DNA of 63,853 nucleotides, filler included, from Collodictyon triciliatum (Eukaryota): NCBI GenBank assembly GCA_043381765.1. It is 43 parts of 43 records of this genome, joined end to end, with 100 filler letters (N's around TTAATTAATTAA, not from the genome) between each part and the next. Parts side by side here need not be neighbours in the genome. Positions count along the whole stretch, not along the records: positions 59,511 to 60,892 come from JBHJMP010011236.1; 42 more parts are not named here. One strand, written 5' to 3'. Numbering within the stretch: the first letter of the stretch is position 1; each line of letters starts with the position of its first letter. A program made the translations under genes and the position numbers. Positions 1,497 to 62,473 of the stretch are shown piece by piece. The notes under the pieces were generated by a model, which was not told the origin of the DNA, searched no databases, and worked only from the letters and a program-made list of their open reading frames with translations.

Positions 1497-2613
1497 GGCT
1501 GATATCGATGAAGCTCAGATTCACCAGGAGGGAGATGTTGGCTGGAAGCACGGAGATGTTTCTTCCCGTGAAATTCAGCGAGTGGAGCTGGATATATGCC
1601 TCGCTTGGTGTCCATCCCGGCTTTATAATTTCGTCTTCCTGTTTTTGTTTTGTATTTAGGATACTTTTCGTTATTTTATTATTTGTCTTTTTGTGTGTGC
1701 TTACGGGGTCGTAGAGCTGCAGCGCGCGGATGTGTTTGTAGTCCGCGTTTGATGTGTTGTTCCACACTGGAAGGGCTGTAATGCCACGCGGTGCTCTCTT
1801 TATGTTAATTCTTCCACCGTATTCGATGTAGAGCGTCCTCATATTTGTGAGCGATGTAAATTGTGGTGGAAGCTCCTCCATCTGCATGTATCGTTGTCAG
1901 TGACTTAATCTTTTCAACATAAATTAAACAGTAATAATAAATGAATAAAAACATACCGGGTTGGTGCGAACAATAAGAGCCGTGAGACCTGTCAAACACG
2001 ATATTTGTGGAGGCAGCGATGACAACTTATTCTTATCAACATTAAGTGCACTGAGACCAGTCAAACAAGATATTTGTGGAGGCAGCGATGACAACTGATT
2101 GTCAAGAACATTAATCCATTCGAGACCAGTCAAACACGATATTTGTGCTGGCAGCGACGACAACTGATTGTCACTAACACCAAGAGCCGTGAGACCAGTC
2201 AAACAAGATATTTGTGCAGGCAGCGATGACAACTGATTGCCACTAACACCAAGTTTTATGAGACCAGTCAAACAAGATATTTGTGGAGGCAGCGATGACA
2301 ACTGATTGCCACTAACACCAAGATCTGTGAGACCAGTCAAACACGATATTTGTGGAGGAAGCGATGACAACTGGTTGTCACTAACACCAAGCTCAATCAG
2401 ACCTGTCAAACATGATATTTGTGGAGGAAGCAACGGCAACTGATTGGTAAAAAGATGCAATCCTTTCAGACCAGTCAACAAAAAGACACCACGAGGAACA
2501 GATGTCAGTTTCTTGTAATTGAGGTCTAGACTCTCGGAGCTTTTTAAAGAGGCGATGTCGCGTTTCCCGGCGATCTCTCGGACCTCTTCTAAAAGCGCGG
2601 CCTCGTCGGCCAT
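1497..2613 (-). CDS. Leucine-rich-repeat protein, 5' part (exon 1 about 2613-1958, then a GTATGT intron, exon 2 from about 1881 to contig end)
   Basis: About 8 tandem 23-aa repeats LTGLxxLxVxxNQLSSLPPQISC; exon 2 continues MEELPPQFTSLTNMRTLYI and ISVLPANISLLVNLSFIDIS. Confidence 0.93.
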
Positions 2614-4270
2614 GCCGACAGAAGTGGGGCGGGGGCGGTTTGGGCGGGTTCTGGGGGTTGTGTGGACGGGTGGACTGGGTTGTGTTAGTGCACTGCAGTG
2701 TTTATTTGTTTTGCGACTGCACTTGACAAGTCACACAGACTGGCGTTGCTTGGGTGAGAGCAGTGCGGTTGTGCACACAGAGAATAGAATGCGCATTGCG
2801 AATGAGTGATGTGATAAGGTAGCGAGAAAGAAAGAGCGCAGGGCAGCAGCGATTTCGACGGGACGAAGGTTAAATATCCCACAAAGGCTGGCNNNNNNNN
2901 NNNNNNNNNNNNNNNNNNNNNNNNNNNNNNNNNNNNTTAATTAATTAANNNNNNNNNNNNNNNNNNNNNNNNNNNNNNNNNNNNNNNNNNNNTTTTTAAA
3001 AATAAAAAAAAAATAAATCATAGTCAAAGGCATCCGATGCAAACATCTGTAGCATTTTTTTTGTCAGAAATGTTATATAGGTTGAGTACACAAAGGTGTT
3101 TGGGTGTTTTAACAGAAAAATGGGGAACCTCTAAGTAATAATCACAGTATATACTCAAATATTGAAAGATTTAGATAATGACTGTTGTTTTTAAGAAGAA
3201 AGTATACACACTTTATCGAAATAAGAGTACAAAAATAAAAATAAATATAATATAATTACTGCAATTCATCCATCAACATACAGAATAACAAAGTAAAGCT
3301 GTAGTATTGTGTTTTATCCAGCGGAGTCATTACATGGGTCAACACGTTGGAGTCTGCAAGTGGATAATGAAAGAAAGGTTAGCAAAACAGTTATCAATAA
3401 AATACAGAATTAAATATATATGAAAAATATAATAATGATTAAGAAAATTGGATTGTAATATCATATAATTCCAACGATTCCATATAATCTGATTTAATGA
3501 TATCACAAAGAGAACTAATCGATTAAATAAAAGCGCTGCAAGAGAGCCAGATATGGTATTTTGCGTGATTCTACTGCCTTTCCCACTCAACGCTGCAATC
3601 GCTGCTTTGTCGCCTCTCTCGAATAAGCTAAATCTGAAAAAGTTCAATGAGACTTGGTGACTTCTATTGAGTCGTATAAAACAAGAGTGATGCAAAAAAT
3701 AATAAACTGAACAAGAATAGTCACGCTTTTCTCAGTTCCAAGACCTGTTGGTGGCAGTCGTTTGGTGTATCTGTCTCAACCAAATGGAAGAAGCATTCTC
3801 CGCAGACAGCCTGATTGTTTTTGGACTCTTGATGGCCACCTTTTTCCAGGCATCGACGTGTCAGCGAGATATCGGAATGACGAACAATAAGCTAGAAAGA
3901 AATGAAAGAAGAGAAAACGTGAATGTACAGATGAAGAGACACGAAGATATTTTCACTTACAGCAATAGCCTGTGGACATGACCATTGTCTTCTATTATGT
4001 GCTTGGGAGAAGTTCATACCTTTTTTTCGTACGCAAATCAAGGAAGGCGCTGCAAGCATAATCCATTTCGCTTTCAGTTTATCTAGCGTTTTTTAAGAAA
4101 GGAAATTCTATTGAGCATTTACCTTTTGTTTTCCTTTTCCAATATTTTTTTGGAATTATTTTGTTGTATTTTTTGGAATTGTTTTAGCGTGAGTATACAG
4201 CACCGCACAATAGGACTCCTTATTGATTTTAAAGATTTGCTTTTTGGTGGGTGAGCAGACTTTTCACAAA

Positions 4271-11948: not shown

Positions 11949-13339
11949 AAAAACTGTGAGCACTTGACCCTGAAGCTAGTTGCCTGTTGAAAGAAAATAC
12001 ATCGGACAGACTGTTCTGATCATCATGTAATATTTTCGTCATAACTAATGATACATAACCTGAGCTTTGAATTATGTCATCTGATGTGGGTATCTTCGAA
12101 AATGACTTTTCAGTATTCCGAAACAGCTTAATCGATATATCTTTCGCTTTTGGCGTTAAAACTCTTTGATAGCTATTAATTGAGCTCATATACTCTTTTT
12201 CCTCGATAAATTGATCTATTAAACAACAAAATGTGAATATTTAATATTTTAAAAAGGATAGCATATTGAATGGTAGAAACTGAACGCATTTTCTTTATTT
12301 AAATCATACCTATGCAAGATAAGATTGTAGAGGCTGAATATATCATACCGTAGGCATCACTTGATTTTGTTATGACATCATAACTTGTCATTATTTTTAA
12401 TAAAGAATCATCTATTGAATTCGGTTTTGCTGAAATTACTGTGATAAACTGTTCACCAAATGCTCCATGTATGTTAAAAGCTTTGACATAAACTCTTATA
12501 TCTCCAATAGGGAGAATAGTTTGGATGCGGCTCTCTCCTGAAGAAGACAAAAGGATGCGATCTTTCGGGTCTTTAACTGTGGAGTAGCTGAACTCATATT
12601 TAAATGGCTGTGACTGGGGACTTCCTTCCCAACCAAACGTAGATAGTGTATATTGTGTTTCCAAAGCAGTGCCATTCGGAGGTTCAGATAGAACGATTCC
12701 GCGCAAGGGTGGAAGAACTGTCTCGACAGTTATTTCTGTAAACCCGAATATTTTTTTCGCAGAAGAAACTGTAGATGCATTTATAGATATTTTGTATTTT
12801 AAGCCTCCAAAGAATATTCCAGGTAGAAAAGTTATGACATTTCTCATTCTCGAGAACAAAATTTCCGATGAATCTTCGATCAGTTGACCATTTATGAGCC
12901 ACACGTAATAAAGTTGCTTATTTCCCGGATTAGTGGGATAGACTCTAATTTCAAGTGCTCTTGATGGATTCATACTTGAATTGTCAATATTTGTAACCGA
13001 GGCCAATGATATAACTTCTCTATTAACTATACGAATCCAAAACTGCTTGCTAAAGGTTCTTGAATCTTTCATTACGTACAAGATAAATTTGTGAATCCCT
13101 TCATCAAAAGTTTCGGGAAGTAACTCGAGTACATTACTAACATGAGACAAGGAATCGCATATATTGGATGAATATGCGGGACAACACCACTTGTAAGTCA
13201 CAAGAGTGTTGCTTTCGGATGGATCAAAAACATAAGCAATAATACTGTGATTTTGAAAAACACCAACATCCTGGTTAGCTCCCACCAACTGAATTGACAA
13301 GGGACCTGGCCTTATAGAAACATCAAATTTGACCTGACT
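11949..13339 (-). CDS. REJ (receptor for egg jelly)/PKD1-like domain protein, internal fragment
   Basis: PPLRGIVLSEPPNGTALETQYTLSTFGWEG..PFKYEFSY and ILPIGD..VYVKAFNIHGA match REJ motifs PP.GG...P..G.AL.T.F....GW...PL.Y.F. Confidence 0.85.
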
Positions 13340-28500: not shown

Positions 28501-29583
28501 AAAGTACAAATTGCAATTTATGATGCGACAAACAGCACAAGATCAAGGCGCGAATGGATACAGCAAACTTGTGAAGATGCAGGAGTCAAAACCATGTTTA
28601 TAGAGAGCCTTTGCGATGACCAGTGTATTGTTTAATTTTTCATTAAAATAATGCTAAATTAAAAAGTATTCCTCCAATAAACGGTCCATTTTTACAAGAC
28701 GAAATGATAATGTATTTTCCTTTATTCGATCTAAAGTGAGATGAAATTATAATATATGTACATATCAACTATACAACATTCTTGATTGATTTTTCTTTTC
28801 CTTTTATCTGGGAAAAGCCATCATCGACAAAAATGTGCGCGCCACAAAAATTTTCTCGCCAGAGTGGGTTTATGTCATCACATGTATTTTATTCATGCTT
28901 ATGCGTGATTTGAGTTTATCATAGAACCATATCATTTTATGGACTTTTGAGTATTGTGTAAATGTGTTTATCTCATTCTTTATTTTTTTAAGCTACCGCG
29001 GAAAAGATCCAGAGTTTGCTGTAGCTGATTTTTTGAAAAGAATACAAATGTATTCAAAAACATATGAACCCGTAGATGAAGAAGATGCTTGCTATGTAAA
29101 AGTAACCATTTCCTTGACGATAAACTGAAACGAAACCAAAAATAAAAACTATTTCCTTGGCGAAATAATGGAAATAAGAAAAGGATAATCAATTTAAAAT
29201 TGTGAAATTAAATGTTATTTATATACACGAAAAAAAATCTGAAAGTAGCCGATTCAATCATCTAGATTATCGATGTCGGTAAAAAAGTCATTGTAAACAA
29301 TGTATTTGGATATTTACAAAGTAAAATTGTTTCCTTCTGCATGAACATGCGAGTAACAACTCGCTCAATTTATATCACCCGACATGGCCAAAGTGAATGC
29401 AATTCGAAGGGTAGAATCGGAGGAGATTCAGAACTTACAGCACTTGGACTTGCCTATGCAGAGAAATTGGCTGAGTTTACTCAAAGTCATATTTTAACCT
29501 CTCATCCAAGGACAAGATTCTGGACATCCACGCTCCGTCGTAGCGTACAAACTGCGAACACTTTAAGTGTTCCTTTTCTGCAA
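28501..29583 (+). CDS. PFKFB: 6-phosphofructo-2-kinase/fructose-2,6-bisphosphatase, internal 4-exon fragment
   Basis: AIYDATNSTRSRR, FIESLCDD, SPDY..AVADFLKRI, NNVFGYLQSKIV, IYITRHGQSE..GRIGGDSELT, WTSTLRR. Confidence 0.96.
28716..28739 (-). mobile_element. Retroposon family A micro-insertion (about 24 bp, older) in a PFKFB intron
   Basis: TTTCCTTTATTCGATCTAAAGTG; degenerate 18-bp TSD at 28698-28715 and 28740-28757 (3 mismatches). Confidence 0.7.
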
Positions 29584-29619
29584 GTAATTGACATTATTTT
29601 CATTTCTTTGGTTTTCCTT

Positions 29620-29699
<80 letters not shown>

Positions 29700-34397: not shown

Positions 34398-35418
34398 ATG
34401 GAACCACCCCGACGACTTGAGCCGCCCCTAGACTTACCTCCTGGTAGTTTTGAGATGTGTGTATTGGACAAGGCTGGAACTTCGACCGATGCGAGCGAAG
34501 TAAATCAAGACGCTAGAGGGCAGAAAACCACAATGTGTGGGGTCCATTCCAGGGTCTCTTCTTCAGCAAGCTTGGCATCCATGGCAACTCATCCACAACA
34601 CTTCGTCGCTTCCATACCTGCTCCTCCTATCACCCAGACTGCATACAATACCATTCCAAATGCACGCCCAGCAAACTCAATGCTTGCTGAGGGGGATGTT
34701 CCTGACAACCTCCATACTCCATTCGTTCATTTGTACCGAGCAGAGCTTGGTCGGGTGACAGCATACCGACAGCGTCTCGATACAGTCACAAACTGGGCCA
34801 TTAGCCTCACTGGTCTTCTAGTAACCTTTAGCCTGTCTCGTGATACAATCCCGCATACATTCTTTTCGATCATACTGCTGTTGAATATCTTATTTCTGGT
34901 CACCGAGTCTCGTCGATATGTGTTTTATGAGCTTGCATTACGCCGTTGCAGAATTGTTGAAATGGGATGGACAGCTCTAATCACACACTCCCCAAACCCA
35001 GACTTGAGATGGAAACAAAAACTCGGTGTGGCTTATGGTACACGACCAGGGCTATTACCATTTCGTAAAAGCTGTTTGATTCGGCTGCAAAGGAACTATA
35101 TATGGATGCTGTGGACTGTAATGGTAGGGTGGACTATCAAGCTGACTAATCTGGACGAATTTCCTTGGTCCGTTTATCTGTAAGACCCATCCTCCCCAAA
35201 GGATTTTACTCTTAGCCTCGTCCTTAATTATCCATATATTATTTATTAGGGGATATAATTCGCGTATTGCTTTATTTCTAAAAAAATCTTCTAATTCAAA
35301 ATAATGTGGTTACTAACGAGCGATTCTTCTTTCCTCATCTAGGTCGATTCTCGCGACAATCAGCTTTACTACTGTTTCACTTCTGTCATCTAAATTCCAT
35401 AGCTGGTTGGATGTTTAA
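34398..35418 (+). CDS. DUF2270-family integral membrane protein, apparently complete (intron 35180-35342)
   Basis: HLYRAELGRVTAYRQRLDTVTNWA, PH, FLVTESRRY..Y....RRCRIVE, RLQRNYIW match DUF2270 motifs HLYRGE..R...WR.RLD.TTNWA, EARRYR, RLRRNY. Confidence 0.85.
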
Positions 35419-38102: not shown

Positions 38103-38989
38103 CAATAACTGTAGGAGGATAGGTGAAATGCAAAGTTATGACGAAACAGGTAAAATGATTCAAAATTTATCTTAAAAATAACAGAATGAAGCCTTGGCGA
38201 TAATGTTTAGGTTGTTATGTCAAAGGCTTCTGTTTAGTATGTCTTACGGCAAAGTTGTCTCGGATTTCAGCAAGACGCTGCTCGTACATGTCGATAAGTG
38301 CCTCATTATCATCCGCTGTAAGATGCATATGAAGAAGTTTGATTCACAAATACATAAAAAAAATGGATGCTGACTGAAAGTGGGACATTTAATATTATGG
38401 TAAATTGACGCAGATTTAGAATTTTCTAGAACCGTCTGATTGTATTGTTTAATCGACAGAAGAAAATGATTTACTTGTCTCTTCGACCCTCGAGATGAAT
38501 GTTCTTGGTGTGCCGGGCATCTCTGCATCTTCCACGTCCTTTCGTGCACATATTCATTTATGTTAAAATTTTTATTTAATTGAGGGAAATAGTTAGACGA
38601 ATTTATTGCAGTGTCATGCAGCTGAGAAATGNNNNNNNNNNNNNNNNNNNNNNNNNNNNNNNNNNNNNNNNNNNNTTAATTAATTAANNNNNNNNNNNNN
38701 NNNNNNNNNNNNNNNNNNNNNNNNNNNNNNNTTTTTTCTTCTTTTTCTTCTTTTTCTTTTCTGTTTACTTTTTTCTTTTCTGTTTACTTTTTTCTTTTTT
38801 TCTTTTCTTTTTCTTCTTTTTCTTCTTTTTCTTCTTTTTCTTTTTCTTTTCTTCTTTTTTTTTCTTTTCTTTTTTCTTTTTTCTTTTTTCTTTTTTCCTT
38901 TTTTCCTTTTTTTCTTTTCCTTTCCTCTTTTTCTTTTTTCTTTTTTCCTTTTTTTCTTTTCCTTTCCTCTTTTTCTTTCTTTTTTTTTC

Positions 38990-39965
38990 CTTTTAAAAGC
39001 AGCAAAGCGTCACTCCTTCCTTGTCTTATTATCAGTATGTTTAAGGTCAAAGAGCGATTATCTAAACCAGAGGAGTCATCTTACACACATCACACATCAC
39101 ACATCAGCTATGCTTGAGTTATCGCGTTGGTCTTAACACATTTTTTCTCAGCATAGAAATGAATCTTTACTTCGTTGCTGCCACTTAAAACATTATGATT
39201 TCTGCAGCTTATATATGAATCATACAAAACTCATGACATTCTCGTATCCGATGATATCGAAACACAAGCATACAAAAGCCTCGTTATGATGAAAATCTGA
39301 ACTTCCTTCGTAATAAAAAAAGGCAGTGTATCAAGCAATGTCCATGACTGCAGAAGCACACAATTTAAATTCACGGGTAATGAACAGCAGCCAAGGCGAC
39401 AATATTTCCTCACGCAACATGCCTATCACCACAACGATGCTGCATCGCAAGAAAATTGAGCCAGGACTGGGTAAAGCTATGTGTGTGGCTGCTAATTGTG
39501 AAATGCCATATGAGAAATAAAAAAATAAAAAAACATGCAAAATGAACAAAAATATTATCTGAACTCAGAAAGATTCCATTTATTGGTAACGCTGCTCGTT
39601 TGTAATGATTTATACAACAACAGACTTCTTGGCTATGAAATGAAACGCTGTGCGACGGGCCTGCATGCAAGATTGTTTGTTTGCCATTTTCATAAATTAT
39701 TTTATTTTATATTTGTTCAAAGTGGTGTAGTTTTTGGCTTTGGCTTTCTAAACTTTGTTTATATGGACGCTCATTCACATCTGATTGGTGGAGTTGTAGT
39801 CGGTAGTCAGTAATTGCATCTCGCGATTTGGCTTTTGGGCTGTCTCTTGTGCCTGCATGAGAAGTACAGTGAGGTTTCGTTTTTTTCTCAGCCTATTTCC
39901 ACATGTCTCTTCTCGCGGGGTCTGAATAATGAAGAATGCCAAGAGACTAGACAAGCTGTTGAGGA
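38990..39965 (+). repeat. About 1-kb duplicated segment, copy 1
   Basis: Colinear with the reverse complement of 50905-51885, with scattered substitutions and small indels. Confidence 0.95.
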
Positions 39966-39968
39966 ATG
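39700..39968 (-). mobile_element. Retroposon family B, decayed 3' fragment
   Basis: FLNSL..HYSDPARRDMWK*AEK..LMQAQ..PNREMQLLTTDY, homologous to 60589-60891; A-rich 3' end. Confidence 0.78.
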
Positions 39969-40217
39969 GCCAAAAAAAAAAACTCTATGAACTAAATAGT
40001 GATAATAAATGAATTATGTATGTATGTATGTATGTATGTATGTATGTATGTATGTATGTATGTATGTATGTATGTATGTATGTATGTATGTATGTATGTA
40101 TGTATGTATGTATGTATNNNNNNNNNNNNNNNNNNNNNNNNNNNNNNNNNNNNNNNNNNNNTTAATTAATTAANNNNNNNNNNNNNNNNNNNNNNNNNNN
40201 NNNNNNNNNNNNNNNNN

Positions 40218-41604
40218 ATCCGATTTTCTTCCTCTAACAATATCAAAATCAGCAGAGCGATACCACGACAGTTTGATCAAAACAAGATTACTACAAAGAT
40301 TGCTGAGTACTTACATAAACATAGCAGAGACGTTTTCAAAGAAATGAGAGTCCAATCGTTGGACTTCGAAGAATACGACAAAGTCAATGACGAAACGAGG
40401 AAGGAAGCCTGGATTTCTTCATCTTCACACAGTCAAGTGGCGAATATTGGCAAAGCTGGGGAGTCAGGAGCGAACGCAGATGATCAAAAGGGCGTTGTTT
40501 CGCCAGAAAAACTTCAACTCGAAGGAAAGGAAAAGAAGAAGGAGAGGGAGGAAGATGTCGTGCGGAGTGATAATTCTACTGAATCATCTCTAGCAAAGGA
40601 TGAAAATCAAGAAGGCCATGAAAGGCAAGAACAGGAGGATAGCCGAAATGATAGAAATCAAAGTTGCTCCAGAATCTCTATGAAAAAGAACGTGAAAGAA
40701 ATTGAAAAATATAAAACAATCATGTCGCTATTAATACCTAATAAGAAGGCTTACAATGTATTGGTTTCCATTTACAAGCTTCCCGTAACTAAATGGATTA
40801 CATTGATTATTTGGATTGTATGCAGTATACTTGCTATCTCTGTTTTCTTCCGATATCAGCTTTTGCCAGATAACTCCTACTTGGCCTTGCAGATAGTTTC
40901 AACGATTAATTGTTCTATTCAACATTTTATTTTCATTAGAGTTGACATCGTAAATGAGCTGATGAAATCATTCAGCTTTTGGTTTACTGTTCTTAATGAT
41001 TTGTCTCTTCATGTATGCTGCTTACTGCTATGGGGAGTCGACGATATTGGCAATTTTTGTGCAGCATTGCATTCATTATCCAGCATTTTATCAGTATTTA
41101 TATTCTACGATGCACATGCTGCCAAAAAGAAAGTCATTATGAGGTTTGCATCCGTAGTAGGCATTTTAAGCTACGTGCCTGTACTTGGAATATTAATATT
41201 TAAACTCGTGCCTTTTCAAAACGAAAAATTCTACTCAGATAACGGGCTTGAAATTATAGATATACGCTTGACCGCTATAGATAATTTGACCACATTGATG
41301 GTTTACTTGCTGAGGATAGTATACACTCACTTGATACAAAAAAAGTCAACAACAATAGCATTTTTGTCTCAATACTATGAATTTCAGTGTGAAAATTCTT
41401 CAATTGGATCGAATGTTCATATTCAAAAGGAAAACTCAAACGAAATCAAATCGATGAAGTCGATAATCCCACAAAGTGATGGCCAACATCAGTTAGAACC
41501 ATATCCAAATAAGAAGATTCATTCGGGTGAAACTGGACATAAGAAATCACCAAGTCAAAATTTTATTTCCATGTCACATGAGGGGAATGATAACAAAGCA
41601 AGTA
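40218..41604 (+). CDS. Multi-pass membrane protein; the whole contig is one open frame
   Basis: No stop across 1387 nt; charged N-terminal region followed by several hydrophobic segments. Confidence 0.85.
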
Positions 41605-41704: not shown

Positions 41705-41989
41705 TCCTGAACAGCCTGCTGAAACACGCCCGCATTCTTCGCTACTCTGACCGCAAGCGAAGAGAGATGTGGGAATGTGTCGTGCGATATCTCCCACAGC
41801 ATATCCAACCACTGCTACCCACGCAGCCAATCAACCAGTTGTGTCGCCCATCTGACCAACTCGCTATCACTGATTTCTTTCCAGTGCTACCTCTCCATGG
41901 TAGTGTCTTCTCCTACTCGCGTTTGCTCCCATCCCGCCCCTTTGTATGGCATAACCTCGCTACACTTTGAATTGAATTAAGGAAAAAAA
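41705..41989 (+). mobile_element. Retroposon family A 3' end (cut by contig start)
   Basis: LNSLLKHARILRYSDRKRREMWECVVRYLPQH..QLAITDFF, same 3' UTR, tail CTTTGAATTGAATTAAGGAAAAAAA. Confidence 0.9.
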
Positions 41990-46059: not shown

Positions 46060-47373
46060 NNNNNNNNNNNNNNNNNNNNNNNNNNNNNNNNNNNNNNNNN
46101 NNNTTAATTAATTAANNNNNNNNNNNNNNNNNNNNNNNNNNNNNNNNNNNNNNNNNNNNTATACGGCCTGGAAGGAGGTGAGTCAACCATGCAGAGAAGT
46201 CCTCTTTGCACTCGACCTAGTGCTTATCAAACGAACCTCACTTCTCTTTTCACCACCCTTTTCGACAGCTTGCGCCATCAAAGCAGTATTCCTCCTCCAT
46301 CCAATCAATATCACCCGCCCCTTTTTTTTTCCCATGCTCGCGGGACACTATCACGCGTCCCCAAAAGAAATCCATGCGTCTCTTGTCAAGCCTCAAGAAC
46401 ATCTATTTTCCCTTTTTCTTTTATTTTTATACCTGTTTTTTCCTCTATCTCCCACATATCCCTACCTACTTTGGAACTACTTGCCTAATGGTTGAATGAA
46501 AGATTGTTCAGACGGGCTCAACAGCTAAGACTTTTAGAATAAAAAAATAATCATATGCTGTTTTCTGATACCAATATACGTCAAACATATAAAAACACAG
46601 AATAATCATTACGGAAAATAATATATTCTAGTTCGACAAAGTCATCACGACTATTCCATTTTTTTTACCACCAACTCTGAGCCCCATCCACAAGTCATTT
46701 CCTTTTTCTTTTTTTTTAATTTTTCTCACCTTAAATTACATCTCATTACATAATACTTCAATACCATTCCTTAATAAATTTCCGCTTTGCGCTCCTCAAT
46801 AATGATAATATAGTGAATAAATACTGCACAAAGAAAAGCTAAAATATAATAATAAAAAACAAAGAACGAATTGATAATTTTCAGTCCAAGACAGCGTGAC
46901 TTTACAAATTGCAACATAGCTATACAGGTTCTGTATGCTAGTGTTCATTGATTTTTTTTATTTATTATCTGAAATATCTGCTTCATGTTGTGTTGGTTAT
47001 ATTTGCTATTGTAAATTTAATGCGGACTATATGTCAGCAATTCATGATGAATTTTGTTCCTTATTTTGTTTTCATGGCTCTAATTATTTTGTTTGTTCTG
47101 AATAATGTCTCTGTCTGGCTATTGAAAATTTTATGACTTGTAAACGCGTCACATCATCAAAAATGAACTTCAAATATATCAACGGTTTCCTATCGTTGCA
47201 GGCCGCTATGCCACTTTGTACTGTATCATACACATAAAATGTGAATAGGATGTTTATTCGTTAAATAATAGCCATAAACACAACGTATAAGTCACTATTG
47301 TGGTTACTACACAGCGGCGCGCAGTGTAATCTCTGAGAAAATAGACAAATATAGATGCACACAAACTGGCCAA

Positions 47374-47478
47374 TTTTTTCCTTTATTCGTCATAAAGTGC
47401 AGCAAGGTTATGCCATACAAAAGGGCGAGATAGGTTCTGATGATAGATAGCAAACGCGAGTAGGAGAAGACACTACCG
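47374..47478 (-). mobile_element. Retroposon family A 3' UTR fragment
   Basis: Reverse complement GGTAGTGTCTTCTCCTACTCGCGTTTGCT..CTTTTGTATGGCATAACCTTGCTGCACTTTATGACGAATAAAGGAAAAAA. Confidence 0.88.
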
Positions 47479-47816
47479 GGGGGGGGGGGGGGGGGGGGGG
47501 GAACAAAAAAAAAAAAAGGGGGTGGGGGGGGGGGGTGGGGGGGGNNNNNNNNNNNNNNNNNNNNNNNNNNNNNNNNNNNNNNNNNNNNTTAATTAATTAA
47601 NNNNNNNNNNNNNNNNNNNNNNNNNNNNNNNNNNNNNNNNNNNNCGGGGGCCAGAAGCGCGCATTCGGCTCGGCCAGAGACGCCCAGTTCTTTGTCAGCT
47701 CCGGTGCATTTGGCCGCAAATCTTACGGGCCTGTCACAGAGCGTGTTTTTGGAACACCTATTAAGAATATTTCGCAGGCAATCTACTAAACAATTCTTAT
47801 TATTCATAAAAATTGT

Positions 47817-49029
47817 TTACGCGGATGATAAAGCAGGACTACAGTTAAATCGAGTTGAATCAATCATCCAGCGTCCTATAGTGGTACGGAAATTAGTAGC
47901 TTTAAAACTGGTACCTTCTGTTACAGTGTAAGTTGTGCCTCCAAGTGCGATACCTGTGCCACTGGAACCAAGCACAAAGGCGTTATTTGCTGGACTGGCT
48001 GAATCAAACCGCACAATCTGAGACCCTGTTCCACTTCTACCCGACAACATCCAAACCATGACTTGAATTTCTAGTCCATCCGGGGCATCACCACTTGCCG
48101 GAAAGACAACTACTGCATTTGAGCTTCCTGAACCCGCTTTTGTTAATATGATTTTACTAGGAGTATTTCGACTCACTGTGTGCGTGCCGCTGTCGTGAAT
48201 CATCCAATCAGTAATCGGCGCCTTAAACAATCGTAGCGAGTTTTGAACTTCGGTATCATTAAGGGTAAAATTAACTGTTGTGGAAGAATTTAAAAGTACA
48301 TTCATTGTAGAGCTTGCTCCTGAGTTAGTTCCTTGTAATCGACAAATATTAGCGGGTAAATTTTGTGCACCAAAATCTATAGCTGTAGTAACTTTTAATG
48401 GGTCGGGCACAGATACTGTCGTTTGTAGCCCATCAATCCATATGTACCAGATACATGTTGTGGGATTCAGGTGATGATATATACACGTATACACACCACC
48501 CTCAATAATTTCATATGTGTTGTTAGCAGTCACTACGGTTTTTGTATTGTTGTGCATAATATGTAATTGTATCCCCGTGGCGCCAGCGGTTTGACCTGTA
48601 TTTAAAAAGACTTGCGCTGTTGCGCCTGAGGTTGAATCTCGATAGGGAATAAATACATGCTGTTGTCCAGATATCCAACTATGAGTAAGATGTGGCAATG
48701 TAATTGTAATATTTGAAGAGGTTTGAACTAAAATTCTATTAACAACAGGAGTCACTGTAGAAACTGTAAAATTACCTGTCCTATTTTCAATCGGGGTTCG
48801 CATAGCTTTTTTCATTACAAACGCTTCTTCAGTATTGGCAATTCCCTCATCACCAACCATTGTACCTGATCTTTCACAAGTTAAAACATTTATTCCTCTT
48901 GAATAAACGAGGGTCCTATCGTTGAAATTGTCAAATCTTATGCCTGAATTCGTACTTGCTGTATTATACACCCCAGCAGTTGCACCTAAATTAGCTACGA
49001 CACCAATGCCGCCGTTTGCTCCTGTGACA
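47817..49029 (-). CDS. Intronless T/S/G/N-rich beta-strand protein, virus fibre/structural-protein-like (5' truncated)
   Basis: About 400 codons open from the contig edge; two related modules (FTVSTVTP..ILV..ITITLP..SGQQHVFI and HTVSRNTP..IIL..VVVFP..DGLEIQVM). Confidence 0.6.
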
Positions 49030-50904
49030 NNNNNNNNNNNNNNNNNNNNNNNNNNNNNNNNNNNNNNNNNNNNTTAATTAATTAANNNNNNNNNNNNNNN
49101 NNNNNNNNNNNNNNNNNNNNNNNNNNNNNAAAAAAAAAAAACAAAGCTTAAACTTTATTTATTAACGAAGGACGAGCCGAATGGACAGATTCAAGCAAAA
49201 CCCGTTTTGTTGTGTATTCAAAGAGAATAGAAGAATGGGCCGATATGATATATAAATGGGTCTTTTTACACAGCACCAATTTTGACGCCTTTTTTTTTTC
49301 CTTATAAGATAGTCTTTCACTTTTATTTGTCTGTGCATGTTTTTTCGCAGTATGATACTCACAGCTACTTCATGAGTAATTCTATGTGCGCTTTCTAAAT
49401 CCGTTTGCAATCACAGGTTTATGACAGCGGACTCACGGACACAGTCATGACAGTATTTGAAATACACTCAGGCGATGCAGGGAGGGGACAACGTGAGTGA
49501 TGAAATACTTTACTAAAGCACAAACATATTTCTGTGCTAAAACTCTTCAAATCATCTTGAAATATACCTTAAATATTTCAAAAAAAAAAGATAAACTGCC
49601 AATTCATTATTCATGCATATTAATACACATTCATAATGAATAGCTTTCTATGGGTTGGATCCGTTTATAATGACAAAAGCATTGCTCGTCCTTCAGAGCC
49701 GCGGTAAAGCGCAGGTTTTCCGCGGGTCCACTACAGACGAGGATGGTGTCAAGTTCTTTGCTTAATTGGAGCCAATAAAGAGTACAACCGCTCATTCAGA
49801 GATTTTACATCATATTTACAGCCCCAAAAATAAGCACTGGTATTTGTTTTTTTCTGAATACGATGAAGAGATAAAGACCCTTCACGCGCTATTGTGGTTC
49901 CATAAGCGACGAGTTTGCAAGATGCCCTTTATAAGAATGGGATGTAAGGGGAGAAAATATGGTTCTTGCATCAACCAAAAAGAAAATGTCGAGCAGATAT
50001 GAATGCATCAGGCGGTGTGGTATATGCTCTTTCTTTTTATTTTTATTTGTAGAATAGCAAGCGGTACAAAGAAAGGCATTCGCACAATTGTGAATCATCC
50101 TTGCCCAGAATCAGTAGCCATCAACATCACGTAAATAGTCCAATACGCCCATACAAACAACCGGATATTATGTCCCACTCAGTCATTCGCACCAACCACC
50201 GACCTACTGCTCCTTATTATTATTATTATTAATATTATTATTATTATTGAAACAATCACTACACCAGCCAAGGCTAAAACACTTGGATTTTTCAAAGCAA
50301 ATAAATGTCTCGGGATATAATCCACACAAACCCATGGGATATAATATTCCCTCATCTCTTTTTTTTCCCTTATGCATGGTGTTTTATCTAGTCGTGGTTT
50401 CCTCATGTACAGCTATTCACTAACAAATCTCTTGCTTTGTGTCTCTTTGGTTGTCTCTGCTGCATATCAGTAGTATATGAGAAGGAAAAGCCTGCTGACG
50501 AGCGAGTTCTGCTTNNNNNNNNNNNNNNNNNNNNNNNNNNNNNNNNNNNNNNNNNNNNTTAATTAATTAANNNNNNNNNNNNNNNNNNNNNNNNNNNNNN
50601 NNNNNNNNNNNNNNACATACATACATACATACATACATACATACATACATACATACATACATACATACATACATACATACATACATACATAAAAACAATA
50701 ATATAGACTATTAATTTTTTTCAAATATAAACATATGGTAAATAAATAATGAATTAATCATTTAAAAATAAATTAAATAACGATAATTAAACAAGAAACC
50801 AAAAGTACGGCAAGAGTTATGTCAAAATACCTAGCAAGGTGCATATTACCAGGATATTTTATCATTATTTAGTTCATTGTGTTCGTATATAATTTATACT
50901 TTTC

Positions 50905-51885
50905 CCCAACAGCTTATCTAGTCACTTTACTTCTTCATTATTCATACCCTGTGAGAAGAGACATGTGGAAATAGGCTGAGAAAGAAAAAACGAAACCTCA
51001 CTGTACTTCTCATGCAGGCACAAGACACAGCCCAAAAGCCAAACTGCGAGATGCAATTCCTGACTACCAACTACAACTCCACCAATCAGATGTGAATGGG
51101 CGTCCATATAAACAAAGTTTAGAAAGCCAAAGCCAGAATCTCCAACACCACTTTGAACAAATATAAAATAATGATTTATGAAATTGGCAAAAAGACAATC
51201 TTGCATGCAGGCCCGTCGCAAAGCGTTTCATTTCATAGCCAAGAAGCCTGTTGATGTATGAATCATTACAAACAAGGAGCGTTACCAATAAATGGAATCT
51301 TTCTGAGTTCAGATAATATTTTTGTTCACTTTGCATGTTTTTTATTTTCATTTCTCATATGGCATTACACAATTAGCAGCCGCACACATAGTTTTACCCA
51401 GTCCTGGCTCAATCTTCTTGCGATGCGGCATCGTTGTGGTGATAGTCATGTTGAATGAGGAAATATTGTCGCATTGGCTGCCGTTCATTCCCCGTGAATT
51501 TAAATTGCGTGCTTCTGCAGTCATGGACATTGCTTTATATACTTCCTCTTTTTTTTATTGCGAGAGAAGTGCAGATTTGCATCATAACGATGGCTTTTGT
51601 ATGCTTGTGTTTTGATATCATCGAATACGAGAATGTCTTGAGTTTTGTATGATTCATATATAAGCTGCAGAAATCATGATGTTTTAAGTGGCAGCAACGA
51701 AGTAAAGATTCATTTCTATGCTGGGAAAAAATGTGTGAAGACCAGCGCGATAACTTAAGCACAGCTGATATGTGACGTGTGATGTGTGTATAGGATGACT
51801 CCTCTGGTTTAGATAATTGCTCTTTGACGTTAAAGATACTGATAATAAGACAAGGAAGGAGTGACGCTTTGCTGCTTTTAAAAAT
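50905..51885 (-). repeat. About 1-kb duplicated segment, copy 2 (includes a family B fragment on + at about 50905-51172)
   Basis: Reverse complement of 38990-39965; same flanking (TATG)n and T/C-rich repeats. Confidence 0.95.
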
Positions 51886-52342
51886 AAAAATAAAAAGAAA
51901 AGAAAAAGGGAAGAAAATAAAAAAAAGAAAAAAAGATAAGAAAAAAGAGACAAAAGAAAAAGAAAAAGAAAAAAGAGAGAAAAAAAAAGAAAAAAGAANN
52001 NNNNNNNNNNNNNNNNNNNNNNNNNNNNNNNNNNNNNNNNNNTTAATTAATTAANNNNNNNNNNNNNNNNNNNNNNNNNNNNNNNNNNNNNNNNNNNNAA
52101 TAAAAAAAGAGAATAATAAAAAAAGAGAATAATAAAAAAAGAGAATAATAAAAAAAGAGAATAATAAAAAAAGAGAATAATAAAAAAAGAGAATAATAAA
52201 AAAAGAGAATAATAAAAAAAGAGAATAATAAAAAAAGAGAATGTGAGAGAAATGACAAGAAACTTTCAAACGGTACTGGATTTAAAAGCCATACACTGAC
52301 GAGAGAAAGGAACTGCAGCAGTAACAAGAAGACCCTATGCAG

Positions 52343-59227: not shown

Positions 59228-60588
59228 ACACTTAGCAAAAGAGGATTCACTTGTATCTAATTCATATTTTATTCGTATTTTATTCGTATTTTATTCGTAT
59301 TTTATTCGTATTTTATTCGTATTTTATTCGTATTTTATTCGTATTTTATTCGTATTTTATTCGTATTTTATTCGTATTTTATTCGTATTTTATTCGTATT
59401 TTATTCGTATNNNNNNNNNNNNNNNNNNNNNNNNNNNNNNNNNNNNNNNNNNNNTTAATTAATTAANNNNNNNNNNNNNNNNNNNNNNNNNNNNNNNNNN
59501 NNNNNNNNNNATACATACATACATACATACATACATACATACATACATACATACATACATACATACATACATACATACATACATACATACATACATACAT
59601 GCATACATAAACTTGCTTATTTGCGCTACCAAAGGGACATATGGGAATTTACCAAAGCTTTAAATCTTCCTTATTGTTCTCTCTATGAAATGGGGTATTT
59701 TTTTATATTGATAGCATGATTAGAATTACCTTCCCTGAGCGATATGTCTTGTTTTTTTAAAAGAATGATTATAATGTTAACAGGTACACATCACTCGGAG
59801 GCCCAAGCAATACTGTCCCGAATCCATCGCTTAAACAAGTGAGTCTTAAAAATTAACCGCCTGCACAATCCTATATTGACGAATCGTATTTGATAGGAGG
59901 ATGGCTCCTATCTACCGGCATACTTTTTGAAGGATGGAAGCAAGGAGAGGGACGGAAGGCTCAAGTTGAAATCGTCTAAGGGAAGTAATGCGTAGTTATC
60001 GGCTAGAAGCCTGACTTTTCTCCCTTTAAGGAATAAACGATTTTTAAAAGGATTATTATACAACATCCAATAAGGACAAAAACACTGAAATAACACTAGC
60101 CAAAAAAAAAATTCATACGCAAAAAGAACTTTACACAGTTTGATTATGCCGATTCATCCAGCGACACAGGGAGGCCCATTTTATATATGTTGTTGCCTAC
60201 ATCATTCCGCCCAGGATTCATTTGTTAATGTTTATTGTTAATGGCTCGTCATCAAAATCAAGAATGGATGGAAGAATGTCATATATAAACGTGTCAACCA
60301 GAGAAGCTATTGTATCGTATGTAGAGTCAGGGTCTTACATTTGCGACTAGAATTAGCACCTGTGCTTCGCATAGGGGGCTTTAAATCCCTTAGAAATAAA
60401 TGTATGAATAGAACCAGAAAAGAGACACAAAAAACTGAGTAGAAAACGTTAACTAACTCCTTTATTACAAAAGCCGACTCTACCCATTACTCATAACGTA
60501 TTTTGTAGAATATGAACTCCTTTTTACTTATATTACTACTCTGTCCTTCAATTTTGTGCAGGATGGTTGAGGTGTTGGCTTTGGTTCG

Positions 60589-60891
60589 CTAGCCAGCGTT
60601 TGCACGGTCGCTTTTTGGTGGCCGGGTGGCGGAGAAGTAGTCGGTAATCAGGGATTGCATCCTACGGTTTGGCCTGTAGCCTGGGTCTTGTGCTTGCATG
60701 AGAGATACAAGGCGAGGTTTAATATCTTTCTCAGCCTCTTTCCACATGTCTCTTCTCACGGGGTCCGAGTAGTAGAGAACGTGCAGGTGGCGAAGAAAGC
60801 TGTTGAGGAAAGAGATTTGTATGATGTCATTCAGTCTGTTATCAGGAATGGGTGGCTGGTTGTTGAGTCTTGCTTTGCGTGAGTATATGCG
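60589..60891 (-). mobile_element. Retroposon family B, intact ORF C-terminus (cut by contig end)
   Basis: RIYSRKARLNNQPPIPDNRLNDIIQISFLNSFLRHLHVLYYSDPVRRDMWKEAEKDIKPRLVSLMQAQDPGYRPNRRMQSLITDYFSATRPPKSDRANAG*; homologous to family A ORF end. Confidence 0.8.
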
Positions 60892-62473
60892 CNNNNNNNN
60901 NNNNNNNNNNNNNNNNNNNNNNNNNNNNNNNNNNNNTTAATTAATTAANNNNNNNNNNNNNNNNNNNNNNNNNNNNNNNNNNNNNNNNNNNNTTTTGTTT
61001 TTTGTTTTTTGTTTTTTGTTTTTTGTTTTTTGTTTTTTGTTTTTTGTTTTTTGTTTTTTGTTTTTTGTTTTTTGTTTTTTGTTTTTTGTTGTTGTGAATT
61101 TGAATTCTCCTCAAAGGTCCAGATAAAAAACGCCTTATTTTGTAACACGCCTCACTTTTGCAAACCTTGATGCATAATCGAAGATCTAATTTAGGCATTT
61201 AAGTCGAGATATATCACGAGGCATAAATAGATAACTTAAAGTTTGTGCATATTTGAACAAGTCAGTAGTGCGTCTGCATAAATGATAGATTGGCAGTAGT
61301 GCCCGATGTTTTGGCTTTCAGTTTAATCAATCATTTTGATAAATCTGAATTGTCAAGTTATTCTTAAATGCAACGACATTTCTTTGAAATGATGAAGAGA
61401 GCCATTGTGATGAACCGCATATTATATTTAAAGAAGGGTGATGGCGCTAACCCTAACAATATATAAGGATTGGTTTTGATATCTTGCGCTGATGAATCAG
61501 GTATTCATATTGATATTTTCTTCTATGTATGCTTCCATCGATAGGAATAGCATAATATATATACCTACGGAGTCTTGGCCATCTATTGAGGCTGATGAGA
61601 AGGTCTTCATAAGTTACCTACACGATTTTATGAGAGAATATTCATCTTAACTGTGATATTTATTTATTCTATATGGCATTAAGATGGCTTATGAATCATG
61701 CATTACGCTGCTTCAAACGCTTAACAGGAGAGCAAGTTTAGCTGCATCTCGATCTGAATCATCTTAGCCTGATGAACTTTCGACCTTGTTTGGGCCTTTT
61801 CCTTCAAGCCCCGCAGCGGAACAAAGACGACTTTTTTCTTGCGTGCACATCGATCGTTGCTCCTTTTTGCCCGCAGACCCGAGTCTGAGCCTTGCACATG
61901 TCTTCCGTGGTGGGCGGCAGGAAGCTTTCGTCCTTTGGATATCGGGGAGCAAATCGAAGGAGGCATTTGCGGCTTCGGCGACCCCAAGACGTCCCTGAGC
62001 TTATCACCATCAGCGGTGTCCATACTCTCCGTGGGCTTTCCTGGTGGCCTTTGTCTTTGATGCAGACGGACTCGGCTTGTTTGCTTCGACTGCCGTTTCA
62101 TTCACTGTCTTGTTTGGTTGTCTGCTTGTCTCGGCTTAGTGATCGGTTGTGGCAGAGTCCTGTAGTTTGAAGTGCCTTTCACAAGTAACTGCCCGATGGG
62201 ACAGCAAACCAAAAGCAACCTCTTTGATTTATTGGTCAGATCACCACGAAACTGGTTGCTTCTTGTTTTTTGTATTTTGTTTTTTGTTTTTTGTTTTTTG
62301 TTTTTTTGTTTTTTGTTTTTTGTTTTTTGTTTTTTGTTTTTTGTTTTTTGTTTTTTGTTTTTTGTTTTTTGTTNNNNNNNNNNNNNNNNNNNNNNNNNNN
62401 NNNNNNNNNNNNNNNNNTTAATTAATTAANNNNNNNNNNNNNNNNNNNNNNNNNNNNNNNNNNNNNNNNNNNN

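What the first reader, a model, noticed from the sequence alone, without database searches (positions are those of the whole stretch)
60589..60891. Two divergent retroposon families keep a canonical PCNA-binding PIP box at the ORF C-terminus
Seen: family A ORFs end QHAITDFF (21504-21527), QLAITDFF (41857-41880, and on the minus strand near 21035-21060). Family B ends QSLITDYF (60657-60634). Each lies 7-12 residues before the ancestral stop. The two families align upstream (LNSLLKHARILRYSDRKRREMW vs LNSFLRHLHVLYYSDPVRRDMW), diverge in the linker, then reconverge on Q-x-x-I-T-D-[FY]-F. Established: Qxx[ILM]xx[FY][FY] is the PIP consensus, and a TD pair is found in high-affinity p21-type PIP boxes. 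Human L1 ORF2p has an internal PIP between endonuclease and RT, and Pogo transposase has a PIP. Inference: these elements tether their protein to PCNA through a terminal PIP to couple integration to replication or repair. I do not know this arrangement from described LINE clades.
Basis: partly seen in the sequence, partly recalled or inferred. Interest (0 to 1): 0.8.

Follow-up and report, generated by a model that had tools for sequence, protein, structure and literature searches.

The report
L1-like retrotransposon tails ending in PCNA-binding motif
Two families of jumping genes in this draft genome encode a protein whose floppy last stretch carries a conserved, textbook docking motif for the DNA-replication clamp PCNA, which suggests, without proving, that they hook onto the replication machinery in a way not described for this kind of element.

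Summary
QSLITDYF (60657-60634, minus strand), QLAITDFF (41857-41880; 21059-21036, minus strand) and QHAITDFF (21504-21527) are present, 7-14 residues before the stop.

The window is not one locus. It is 43 unplaced contigs of about 1.39 kb joined by N/TTAATTAATTAA linkers, so neighbouring sequence is artificial.

Both families are C-terminal tails of L1-like LINE ORF2 proteins:
- Longer metagenome relatives carry the zf-RVT zinc knuckle above Pfam's cut-off.
- A model of one relative matches the human L1 ORF2p C-terminal domain best (Z 10.3/10.1/9.1; next Z 7.1).
- Copies share a 3' end (AATAAA plus a short A run), vary in 5' truncation, and have 16-17-nt target-site duplications.

The motif is conserved in four lineages as Q-x-x-I-T-[DN]-[FY]-F. 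It sits in an otherwise unconserved, low-confidence tail. Codons differ synonymously between families A and B, so the constraint is on the protein.

The motif matches the pogo and p21-type high-affinity PIP boxes. PCNA binding is inferred, not tested. No RT or endonuclease sequence could be recovered. I found no paper describing a C-terminal PIP box in a LINE. I file it as a new variant of a known kind.

The parts
60592..60891 (-). Family B: last 100 codons of an L1-like ORF2, open from the contig edge; stop at 60591-60589
   Evidence: 85% identical over 109 aligned residues to metagenome protein P0014, which continues upstream into a CCHC zinc knuckle. A loose end of an RNA-library contig at 60891 reads on as in P0014.
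60634..60657 (-). PIP-type motif QSLITDYF of family B
   Evidence: The Q, I, T and F columns are invariant in 10 sequences. Most contigs of runs X5 and X20 read QFLITDYF; no variant of 10% or more falls in the six constrained codons.
60545..60588 (-). Family B 3' untranslated end, about 45 nt up to the repeat boundary
   Evidence: Summed contig depth in X5 and X20 falls from thousands to about 0 below about 60545. Loose ends there are A-rich tails (tables 2, 5c, 7).
41705..41989 (+). Family A copy (contig c29), cut by the contig start; motif QLAITDFF at 41857-41880; a 1-nt deletion after the motif removes the ancestral stop; 3' end is AATTAAGG plus an A run
21405..21656 (+). Family A copy (c15+), 5'-truncated; motif QHAITDFF at 21504-21527; stop 7 codons later; flanked by a 17-nt target-site duplication at 21388-21404 and 21657-21673 (16 of 17 match)
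   Evidence: (repeat D4).
20915..21225 (-). Family A copy (c15-), older; motif QLAITDFF at 21059-21036; boundaries approximate
21063..21088 (+). 26-nt 3'-terminal fragment of family A, inserted antisense into the PIP-coding part of the c15- copy; flanked by a 16-nt duplication at 21047-21062 and 21089-21104 (15 of 16 match)
   Evidence: (repeats D1, D2). An extreme 5' truncation with a target-site duplication is the mark of target-primed reverse transcription.
47374..47486 (-). Family A 3'-end fragment (contig c32), 81% identical to c15+
39781..39966 (-). Decayed family B copy (c27): stop and frameshift; motif decayed to QLLTTDYN
50930..51089 (+). Decayed family B copy (c35): same stop as c27 (MWK*AEK); motif decayed to QFLTTNYN; 89% identical to c27 over 1151 nt
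21862..22269 (+). Separate fragment of a related ORF2 (region upstream of the zinc knuckle); one in-frame stop; runs off the contig
   Evidence: tblastn: 62% identity to P0013 residues 1-136, E 1e-52.

Best explanation
The frames are the C-terminal ends of the ORF2 protein of two related families of L1-like non-LTR retrotransposons (LINEs). After the L1-type C-terminal domain with its CCHC zinc knuckle comes a poorly conserved, probably disordered tail of 25-45 residues. The tail ends in a canonical PCNA-interacting (PIP) box of the high-affinity Thr-Asp type, Q-x-x-I-T-[DN]-[FY]-F, 7-14 residues from the stop.

Shown: the LINE identity of the copies, the position of the motif, and its protein-level conservation.

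Inferred: the tail docks ORF2p onto the host sliding clamp PCNA at the integration site. Human L1 is already reported to need PCNA, which is proposed to recruit the particle to suitable target DNA and to bring in RNase H2. Here the link would be made by a simple terminal peptide like that of the pogo transposase. Human L1 instead uses an internal PIP helix or wrist 'PUB' surface.
For: LINE identity:
- A profile of the two window tails found 9 proteins at E<=0.001 among 1.84 billion. Six are relatives (P0003-7, P0009). I set aside three as internally repetitive and unrelated (P0008, P0010, P0011).
- P0004 and P0006 reach Pfam's cut-off for zf-RVT (36.4 and 27.8 bits against 27.5).
- Cluster mate P0014 is family B extended upstream into the zinc knuckle. 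Metagenome locus L001 is family A extended upstream likewise.
- An AlphaFold2 model of P0004 aligns best to three human L1 ORF2p structures: 9k6g_A Z 10.3, rmsd 3.7, 164 residues, model 24-226 on ORF2p 1067-1265; 8uw3_A Z 10.1; 9hdo_A Z 9.1. The next rows have Z<=7.1.
- Five family A copies share the end CTTTGAATCGAATAAAGG plus an A run and then diverge, with different 5' start points.
- Two insertions have 17-nt and 16-nt target-site duplications.

Motif:
- Present in four lineages: A QLAITDFF/QHAITDFF; B QSLITDYF/QFLITDYF/QFLITNYF; C QTAITDFF/QTAITDYF; D QSVITNFF.
- In the 4-lineage alignment, the folded part has 26 of 79 invariant columns (pairwise identity 0.50), the linker 0 of 28 (0.14) and the motif 4 of 8 (0.62).
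- The invariant columns of the 10-row alignment are W50, Q79, I82, T83 and F86.
- The Ile, Thr, Asp and last Phe codons differ only synonymously between A (ATC ACT GAT ... TTT) and B (ATT ACC GAC ... TTC). The constraint is therefore on the protein, not the RNA.
- The tail of the model (residues 228-253, motif at 237-244) has pLDDT below 50.
- Dead copies c27 and c35 have lost the motif.

Literature (passages read):
- The pogo PIP box QKKITDYF binds at nM to 0.1 uM, and its Thr-Asp pair is linked to high affinity (PMC8191301, PMC4103810).
- QTSITDFF is a designed consensus binder (PMC4615156).
- The pogo, Tigger and Lemi1 transposases and L1 ORF2p interact with PCNA (PMC5371812, PMC10830420, PMC7617806).
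Against: - No binding test of any kind. The complex predictor was unavailable and no host PCNA was at hand.
- No RT or endonuclease domain was seen: none in 139 window frames scanned, and three 'longer' protein searches found nothing. All relatives come from contigs of 0.6-1.5 kb, so an intact, active element has not been shown.
- Asp is Asn in lineage D and in P0014.
- Basic flanks that raise affinity are present in B but not in C.
- The column-shuffle test for clustering of invariant columns is only P=0.045.
- The fold match is to a helical domain, where middling Z scores are common. Foldseek itself gave E 0.45.
- The human precedent warns against reading function from the consensus. The ORF2p PIP helix is buried against the palm, and PCNA is now placed on another site (passages of PMC10830420, PMC7617806).
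- PIP-like motifs can also serve other partners (my own knowledge, not tested).
Confidence: 0.6

Rival explanations
1. The motif is under selection but not for PCNA. It could serve another partner that reads PIP-like peptides (for example Rev1 or Mlh1-type pockets, or another clamp), or it could fold back onto ORF2p itself as the human 'PIP helix' does.
For: Conservation alone does not name the partner. In human ORF2p the consensus PIP helix packs on palm and fingers, and PCNA is modelled elsewhere (passages of PMC10830420, PMC7617806).
Against: The motif matches all six informative positions of the pogo box and of the designed p21-08 box, which bind PCNA tightly (passages of PMC8191301, PMC4615156). 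It lies at the end of a low-confidence tail after the last helix, not inside a domain. That is the usual setting of terminal PIP boxes.
Confidence: 0.2
2. The motif is a PIP degron. PCNA-bound ORF2p would be handed to CRL4-Cdt2 and destroyed on chromatin, limiting the element's activity.
For: Family B has Thr-Asp plus a basic residue at +4 after the box (YFSATR). That is the degron pattern as I recall it; the review PMC8871960 was seen only in a search listing.
Against: The +4 residue is Pro or Ala in A, His in C, Pro in D and Leu in P0007. The degron feature is therefore not conserved, while the box is.
Confidence: 0.07
3. The match has no function. The eight residues are retained by chance or by recent common descent of dead copies.
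For: The loose PIP pattern is as frequent as expected in the window (12 against 10.8). Only a handful of independent lineages are available, and the shuffle test is weak (P=0.045).
Against: The 28 linker columns just upstream have diverged to 14% pairwise identity, while the motif keeps 4 invariant and 2 conservative positions. Synonymous sites in the motif have changed. Copies with stops and frameshifts have lost the motif.
Confidence: 0.1
4. These are processed pseudogenes of a cellular PIP-box protein, or pogo-like DNA transposons, not LINEs.
For: The box is the same as in pogo transposase (passages of PMC5371812, PMC8191301). No RT was seen.
Against: - zf-RVT lies directly upstream in the same frame.
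- The best fold match is the L1 ORF2p C-terminal domain.
- Copies show a common 3' end, variable 5' truncation and 16-17-nt duplications.
- No transposase family appeared in the Pfam scans.
Confidence: 0.03

Closest known systems
Human LINE-1 ORF2p and its PCNA link (internal PIP helix 404-419; wrist 'PUB' site)
   Same: Same kind of element by the evidence at hand: a C-terminal domain with a CCHC knuckle, a fold match to ORF2p 1066-1267, and TPRT hallmarks. L1 retrotransposition is reported to need PCNA (passages of PMC10830420, PMC7617806).
   Different: In human L1 the consensus PIP lies between the endonuclease and the RT and is packed against the RT, and PCNA is now modelled on a non-canonical wrist surface. 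Here a canonical Thr-Asp-type box sits on a floppy tail appended after the C-terminal domain. The fold alignment stops at model residue 226-227, and the 26 tail residues beyond it have no counterpart in the match.
pogo / Tigger / Lemi1 transposase PIP box
   Same: Nearly the same peptide: pogo QKKITDYF against family B QSLITDYF, on a mobile-element protein (passages of PMC5371812, PMC8191301, PMC4103810). That the pogo box is C-terminal is my recollection.
   Different: pogo is a DNA transposon with a DDE transposase. The present elements are retroposons. The resemblance would be convergent.
Cellular terminal PIP boxes of the p21 type
   Same: Q-x-x-h-T-D-a-a near the C-terminus of a disordered tail. 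Basic residues precede the box in family B (NRRMQSLITDYF; p21 KRRQTSMTDFY as printed in PMC4615156).
   Different: Those are host regulators. The degron feature (basic residue at +4) is not conserved here.
Plant and other eukaryotic L1-type RTs with zf-RVT (PF13966)
   Same: Same Pfam domain. The nearest Atlas clusters carry zf-RVT, and one also carries RVT_1 (leads only).
   Different: No sequence-level relative of 687-2000 residues was found. I could not check whether those proteins carry a terminal PIP.

Membership tests
L1-like non-LTR retrotransposon (LINE) ORF2 | Reverse transcriptase domain (RVT_1) | not testable with these tools
   All copies and relatives are cut by contig ends of 0.6-1.5 kb. 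None was found in 139 window frames or in three 'longer' searches.
L1-like non-LTR retrotransposon (LINE) ORF2 | APE-type endonuclease domain | not testable with these tools
   Same reason as for the RT. No upstream sequence could be fetched.
L1-like non-LTR retrotransposon (LINE) ORF2 | C-terminal CCHC zinc knuckle (Pfam zf-RVT, PF13966) | tested here: met
   P0004 scores 36.4 bits and P0006 27.8 bits against a cut-off of 27.5. The same knuckle is in P0014 (family B) and L001 (family A).
L1-like non-LTR retrotransposon (LINE) ORF2 | Fold of the ORF2p C-terminal domain | tested here: met
   VIA second look: 9k6g_A Z 10.3, 8uw3_A Z 10.1, 9hdo_A Z 9.1, on ORF2p residues 1065-1267. The next row has Z 7.1. 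Caveats: model mean pLDDT is 56.5, the fold is helical, and Foldseek gave E 0.45.
L1-like non-LTR retrotransposon (LINE) ORF2 | TPRT hallmarks: common 3' end with A-rich tail, variable 5' truncation, target-site duplications | tested here: met
   5 of 5 family A copies end at the same AATAAAGG plus A run and then diverge. Duplications of 17 nt (16/17) and 16 nt (15/16) sit exactly at the insert borders.
Canonical PIP box (PCNA-interacting peptide) | Q-x-x-[ILMV]-x-x-[FY]-[FY] | tested here: met
   Met in all intact copies of lineages A-D.
Canonical PIP box (PCNA-interacting peptide) | Lies in an accessible, disordered stretch, typically terminal | tested here: met
   7-14 residues from the stop. 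Model tail 228-253 has pLDDT below 50 after the last long helix. A shallow alignment could also explain the low confidence.
Canonical PIP box (PCNA-interacting peptide) | Binds PCNA through the hydrophobic pocket and Q pocket | not testable with these tools
PIP degron (CRL4-Cdt2 substrate) | Thr-Asp in the box plus a basic residue at +4 | tested here: not met
   The +4 residue is basic only in family B. It is Pro/Ala, His, Pro or Leu elsewhere. The pattern itself is recalled.
pogo/Tigger DNA transposon | DDE transposase with CENP-B-type DNA-binding domain; short TA duplication | tested here: not met
   Pfam finds zf-RVT and no transposase family. Duplications are 16-17 nt. The defining features of the family are recalled.

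The most novel reading that the evidence does not exclude
A lineage of L1-like retrotransposons has bolted a pogo/p21-grade PIP box onto the very end of ORF2p as a modular clamp hook. It does the job that mammalian L1 does with an internal or wrist surface. Retrotransposition of these elements depends on it. If so, clamp capture would be a general and repeatedly re-invented requirement of LINE integration. This family would also offer a clean separation-of-function handle, because deleting about ten terminal residues would not touch the enzyme.
Probability: 0.45. Interest if true: 0.65.

Novelty: new variant of a known kind. Interest (0 to 1): 0.5.

Why it matters
How LINE-1 engages PCNA is currently disputed: a canonical internal PIP helix against a non-canonical wrist site (passages of PMC10830420 and PMC7617806). 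A related group of elements with an unmistakable, conserved, terminal PIP box would be independent evolutionary evidence that clamp binding matters for LINE integration. It would also give a simpler system to test what the clamp does, whether target choice at replication forks, processivity or RNase H2 recruitment. Finally it would be a case of a retrotransposon and a DNA transposon (pogo) arriving at the same host-hijacking peptide.

Tried and rejected
- **Pfam on the two window tails:** nothing.
- **Word-indexed protein search for longer relatives:** of P0001, P0002 and alignment A4, none found. The tool says this is weak evidence.
- **PDB sequence searches:** with P0013 and profile A5, only chance rows at E>0.5.
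- **Foldseek against the PDB:** no match at E<=0.001. Human ORF2p ranked first at E 0.45.
- **Metagenome scan:** one short locus only, L001.
- **Viral contig scan:** none.
- **RT or endonuclease search in the window:** 8 plus 131 frames scanned. Only unrelated families appeared (REJ, DUF2270, LRR, His_Phos_1, MAGE, mTERF, Kelch).
- **No whole genome is held for this window**.
- **Complex prediction:** I tried an archaeal PCNA stand-in, the only kind of reference offered.
- **Earlier-findings look-ups:** nothing returned.

Ideas considered and dropped:
- **A pogo-like DNA transposon**, because the box equals pogo's. Dropped on zf-RVT, 5' truncation and long duplications.
- **A long-terminal-inverted-repeat or DIRS-like element**, to explain the head-to-head pair in c15. 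Dropped because the + copy has its own 17-nt duplication.
- **RNA-level constraint on the motif.** Dropped because the codons differ synonymously.

Other points:
- QKKITNFF at 15691-15714 (-) is a strict-pattern hit in an unrelated low-complexity frame and is treated as chance.
- Runs X1 and X19 cover only parts of the stretch. I draw nothing from the uncovered parts.
- The variant count in the motif is too small to be a test: 2 of 27 listed places, both in the free second codon, with 0 in the 18 constrained bases against about 2 expected.
- Literature searches for a C-terminal PIP box in a LINE found none. The library lacks most subscription journals, and Warbrick 1998 (PMC147798) was not held.

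Full report
**What the window is.** The 63,853 bases are not one locus. They hold 84 runs of 44 N around 42 copies of TTAATTAATTAA, which split the sequence into 43 pieces of 1379-1396 nt sorted by length. This is a chain of unplaced contigs of a draft eukaryotic genome with GC about 0.26-0.41. Neighbouring features are therefore not genomic neighbours, and the finding's upper limit (60892) is a contig end. No whole genome is held. Sampled words of contig c41 occur in small shares in freshwater metagenome runs and in two small runs of coded organisms.

**The observation.**
- On the minus strand, 60891-60592 is open for 100 codons from the contig edge. It ends ...NRRMQSLITDYFSATRPPKSDRANAG, with the stop at 60591-60589.
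- Family A has QLAITDFF at 41857-41880, QHAITDFF at 21504-21527 and QLAITDFF at 21059-21036 on the minus strand.
- Further family B copies lie at 39966-39781 (-) and 50930-51089 (+). They share a stop codon and a frameshift, and their motif has decayed to QLLTTDYN and QFLTTNYN.
- A family A 3' fragment lies at 47374-47486.

**What the elements are.** The window tails have no Pfam match and no word-sharing longer relatives. A profile of the two tails, searched against 1.84 billion representatives, gave 9 proteins at E<=0.001. I set three aside (P0008, P0010, P0011) because they are internally repetitive, match in several stretches and lack the motif. The other six, and their cluster mates, come from metagenome contigs of 570-1529 nt.

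- P0004 (253 aa) and P0006 (197 aa) reach Pfam's gathering score for zf-RVT, the zinc knuckle of LINE reverse transcriptases (36.4 and 27.8 bits against 27.5).
- P0014 (221 aa) is family B itself, 85% identical to the window frame. It continues upstream through RGHLLWTMW to CTLCSNSDESIEHTFVQC.
- A loose end of a metatranscriptome contig at 60891 reads on in exactly that way.
- Locus L001 (1157 nt) is family A extended upstream to CTMCDSGDDSIEHTFVKC, with one frameshift.
- An AlphaFold2 model of P0004 (12-row alignment, mean pLDDT 56.5, residues about 80-225 at 64-84) matches three human L1 ORF2p structures best when its top Foldseek candidates are re-aligned. The scores are Z 10.3, 10.1 and 9.1 over 164-167 residues, with model 20-227 on ORF2p 1065-1267. 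Unrelated rows start at Z 7.1. Foldseek alone also ranked ORF2p first, but at E 0.45.
- The Atlas look-alikes of P0013 carry zf-RVT, and one carries RVT_1 (leads only).

**Retroposition hallmarks.**
- All five family A copies (four in the window and L001) end at the same CTTTGAAT(C/T)GAAT(A/T)AAGG plus a short A run, then diverge completely. Their 5' ends differ.
- The + copy in c15 (21405-21656) is flanked by a 17-nt direct repeat (21388-21404 and 21657-21673, 16 of 17 matching).
- A 26-nt 3'-terminal fragment (21063-21088) sits antisense inside the older copy, flanked by a 16-nt repeat (15 of 16 matching). These are two of only four direct-repeat families found in that contig.
- For family B, about 200 contigs in each of runs X5 and X20 lie on 60545-60892 at 85-100% identity. 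Almost none lie below 60545, where loose ends are A-rich. This puts the 3' boundary about 45 nt after the stop and shows a large, heterogeneous family.
- I could not recover RT or endonuclease sequence by any route. The call 'L1-like' therefore rests on the C-terminal domain.

**The motif.**
- Four lineages carry it: A (QLAITDFF, QHAITDFF), B (QSLITDYF, QFLITDYF, QFLITNYF), C (QTAITDFF, QTAITDYF) and D (QSVITNFF). This gives Q-x-x-I-T-[DN]-[FY]-F.
- With one representative per lineage, the folded part has 26 of 79 invariant columns (pairwise identity 0.50). The 28 linker columns after the conserved Trp have none (0.14). The motif has 4 of 8 (0.62). The next seven columns have one, a Pro (0.26).
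- A column shuffle gives P=0.045 for such clustering, which is weak on its own.
- In a 10-row alignment the only invariant columns are W50, Q79, I82, T83 and F86.
- Between A and B, the Ile, Thr, Asp and last Phe codons differ at the third base only. The constraint therefore acts on the protein.
- In the model the box (237-244) lies in the tail 228-253, with pLDDT below 50, beyond the part that aligns to ORF2p.
- The loose PIP pattern is no commoner in the window than composition predicts (12 against 10.8). The strict one is (5 against 0.04), with one unrelated hit at 15691-15714.

**Mechanism.** This part is inferred, not shown.
- The box equals the pogo box QKKITDYF at all six informative positions, and families A and C equal the designed consensus QTSITDFF. 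Both bind human PCNA tightly, and the Thr-Asp pair is linked to high affinity (passages of PMC8191301, PMC4103810, PMC4615156).
- PCNA is reported to be required for human L1 retrotransposition. It is proposed to recruit RNase H2 and to guide the particle to suitable target DNA (passages of PMC10830420, PMC7617806; PMC5371812 for transposons in general).
- I therefore think the tail tethers ORF2p to PCNA at or near the integration site.
- The same papers are a caution. The human consensus PIP is a buried helix, and PCNA is now placed on a wrist 'PUB' surface.
- A degron reading fits family B only, because the basic residue at +4 is not conserved.
- The complex predictor was unavailable, so no model of binding exists.

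**Novelty.** PCNA use by L1, and a terminal PIP box on the pogo transposase, are both known. A conserved canonical PIP box appended after the C-terminal domain of a LINE ORF2p did not turn up in five full-text searches of a library that lacks most subscription journals. I file it as a new variant of a known kind, of moderate interest. It is testable with a peptide-binding assay and a tail-deletion retrotransposition assay.

Noticed in passing
whole window; linkers e.g. 60893-60992: The window is a chain of 43 unplaced contigs (1379-1396 nt, sorted by length) joined by N44-TTAATTAATTAA-N44. Any finding that relies on gene neighbourhood across these linkers is void.
   Followed up: yes
38874-40005 and 50859-51998 (contigs c27, c35): These two contigs share 1151 nt at 89% identity. 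The shared stretch runs far beyond the decayed family B tail and has (ACAT)n on the 5' side. It could be a segmental duplication, a composite repeat or a non-autonomous derivative. Which one is undecided.
   Followed up: partly
59694-59782: One contig of run X5 skips 89 nt with GT..AG ends in the flank of contig c41 (table 5). This suggests a spliced host transcript next to the family B insertion and hints that X5 is indeed RNA.
   Followed up: no
15691-15714 (-): QKKITNFF fits the strict PIP pattern but lies in a short low-complexity frame in which ITNFFI occurs twice. It has no similarity to the LINE tails and is probably chance.
   Followed up: partly
20882-20914: A run of 33 A at the contig start abuts the 3' end of the minus-strand family A copy. 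On that copy's own strand it is therefore a T run, not a poly(A) tail. Unexplained; the contig is cut here.
   Followed up: no
47330-47470 (-): The family A 3' fragment in c32 is preceded by long C runs and T runs. This may be an assembly or sequencing artefact.
   Followed up: no
1927-2730 (-): A leucine-rich-repeat protein frame (LRR_8, LRR_4) whose DNA holds a 69-nt tandem periodicity at about 85% identity.
   Followed up: no
12302-13339 (-); 34449-35180 (+); 29266-29640 (+): Host gene fragments: a REJ domain (E 2e-24), DUF2270 (E 1e-34), and a 6-phosphofructo-2-kinase/histidine phosphatase junction.
   Followed up: no
40218-41603 (+); 47820-49028 (-): Two long open frames (462 and 403 codons) fill whole contigs and have no Pfam family.
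   Followed up: no
59511-59614, 60993-61050, 62236-62373 and many contig ends: Contig ends are very often microsatellites, such as (ACAT)n, (CAAAAAA)n, (CT)n and long homopolymers. This is probably why these pieces stayed unplaced.
   Followed up: no
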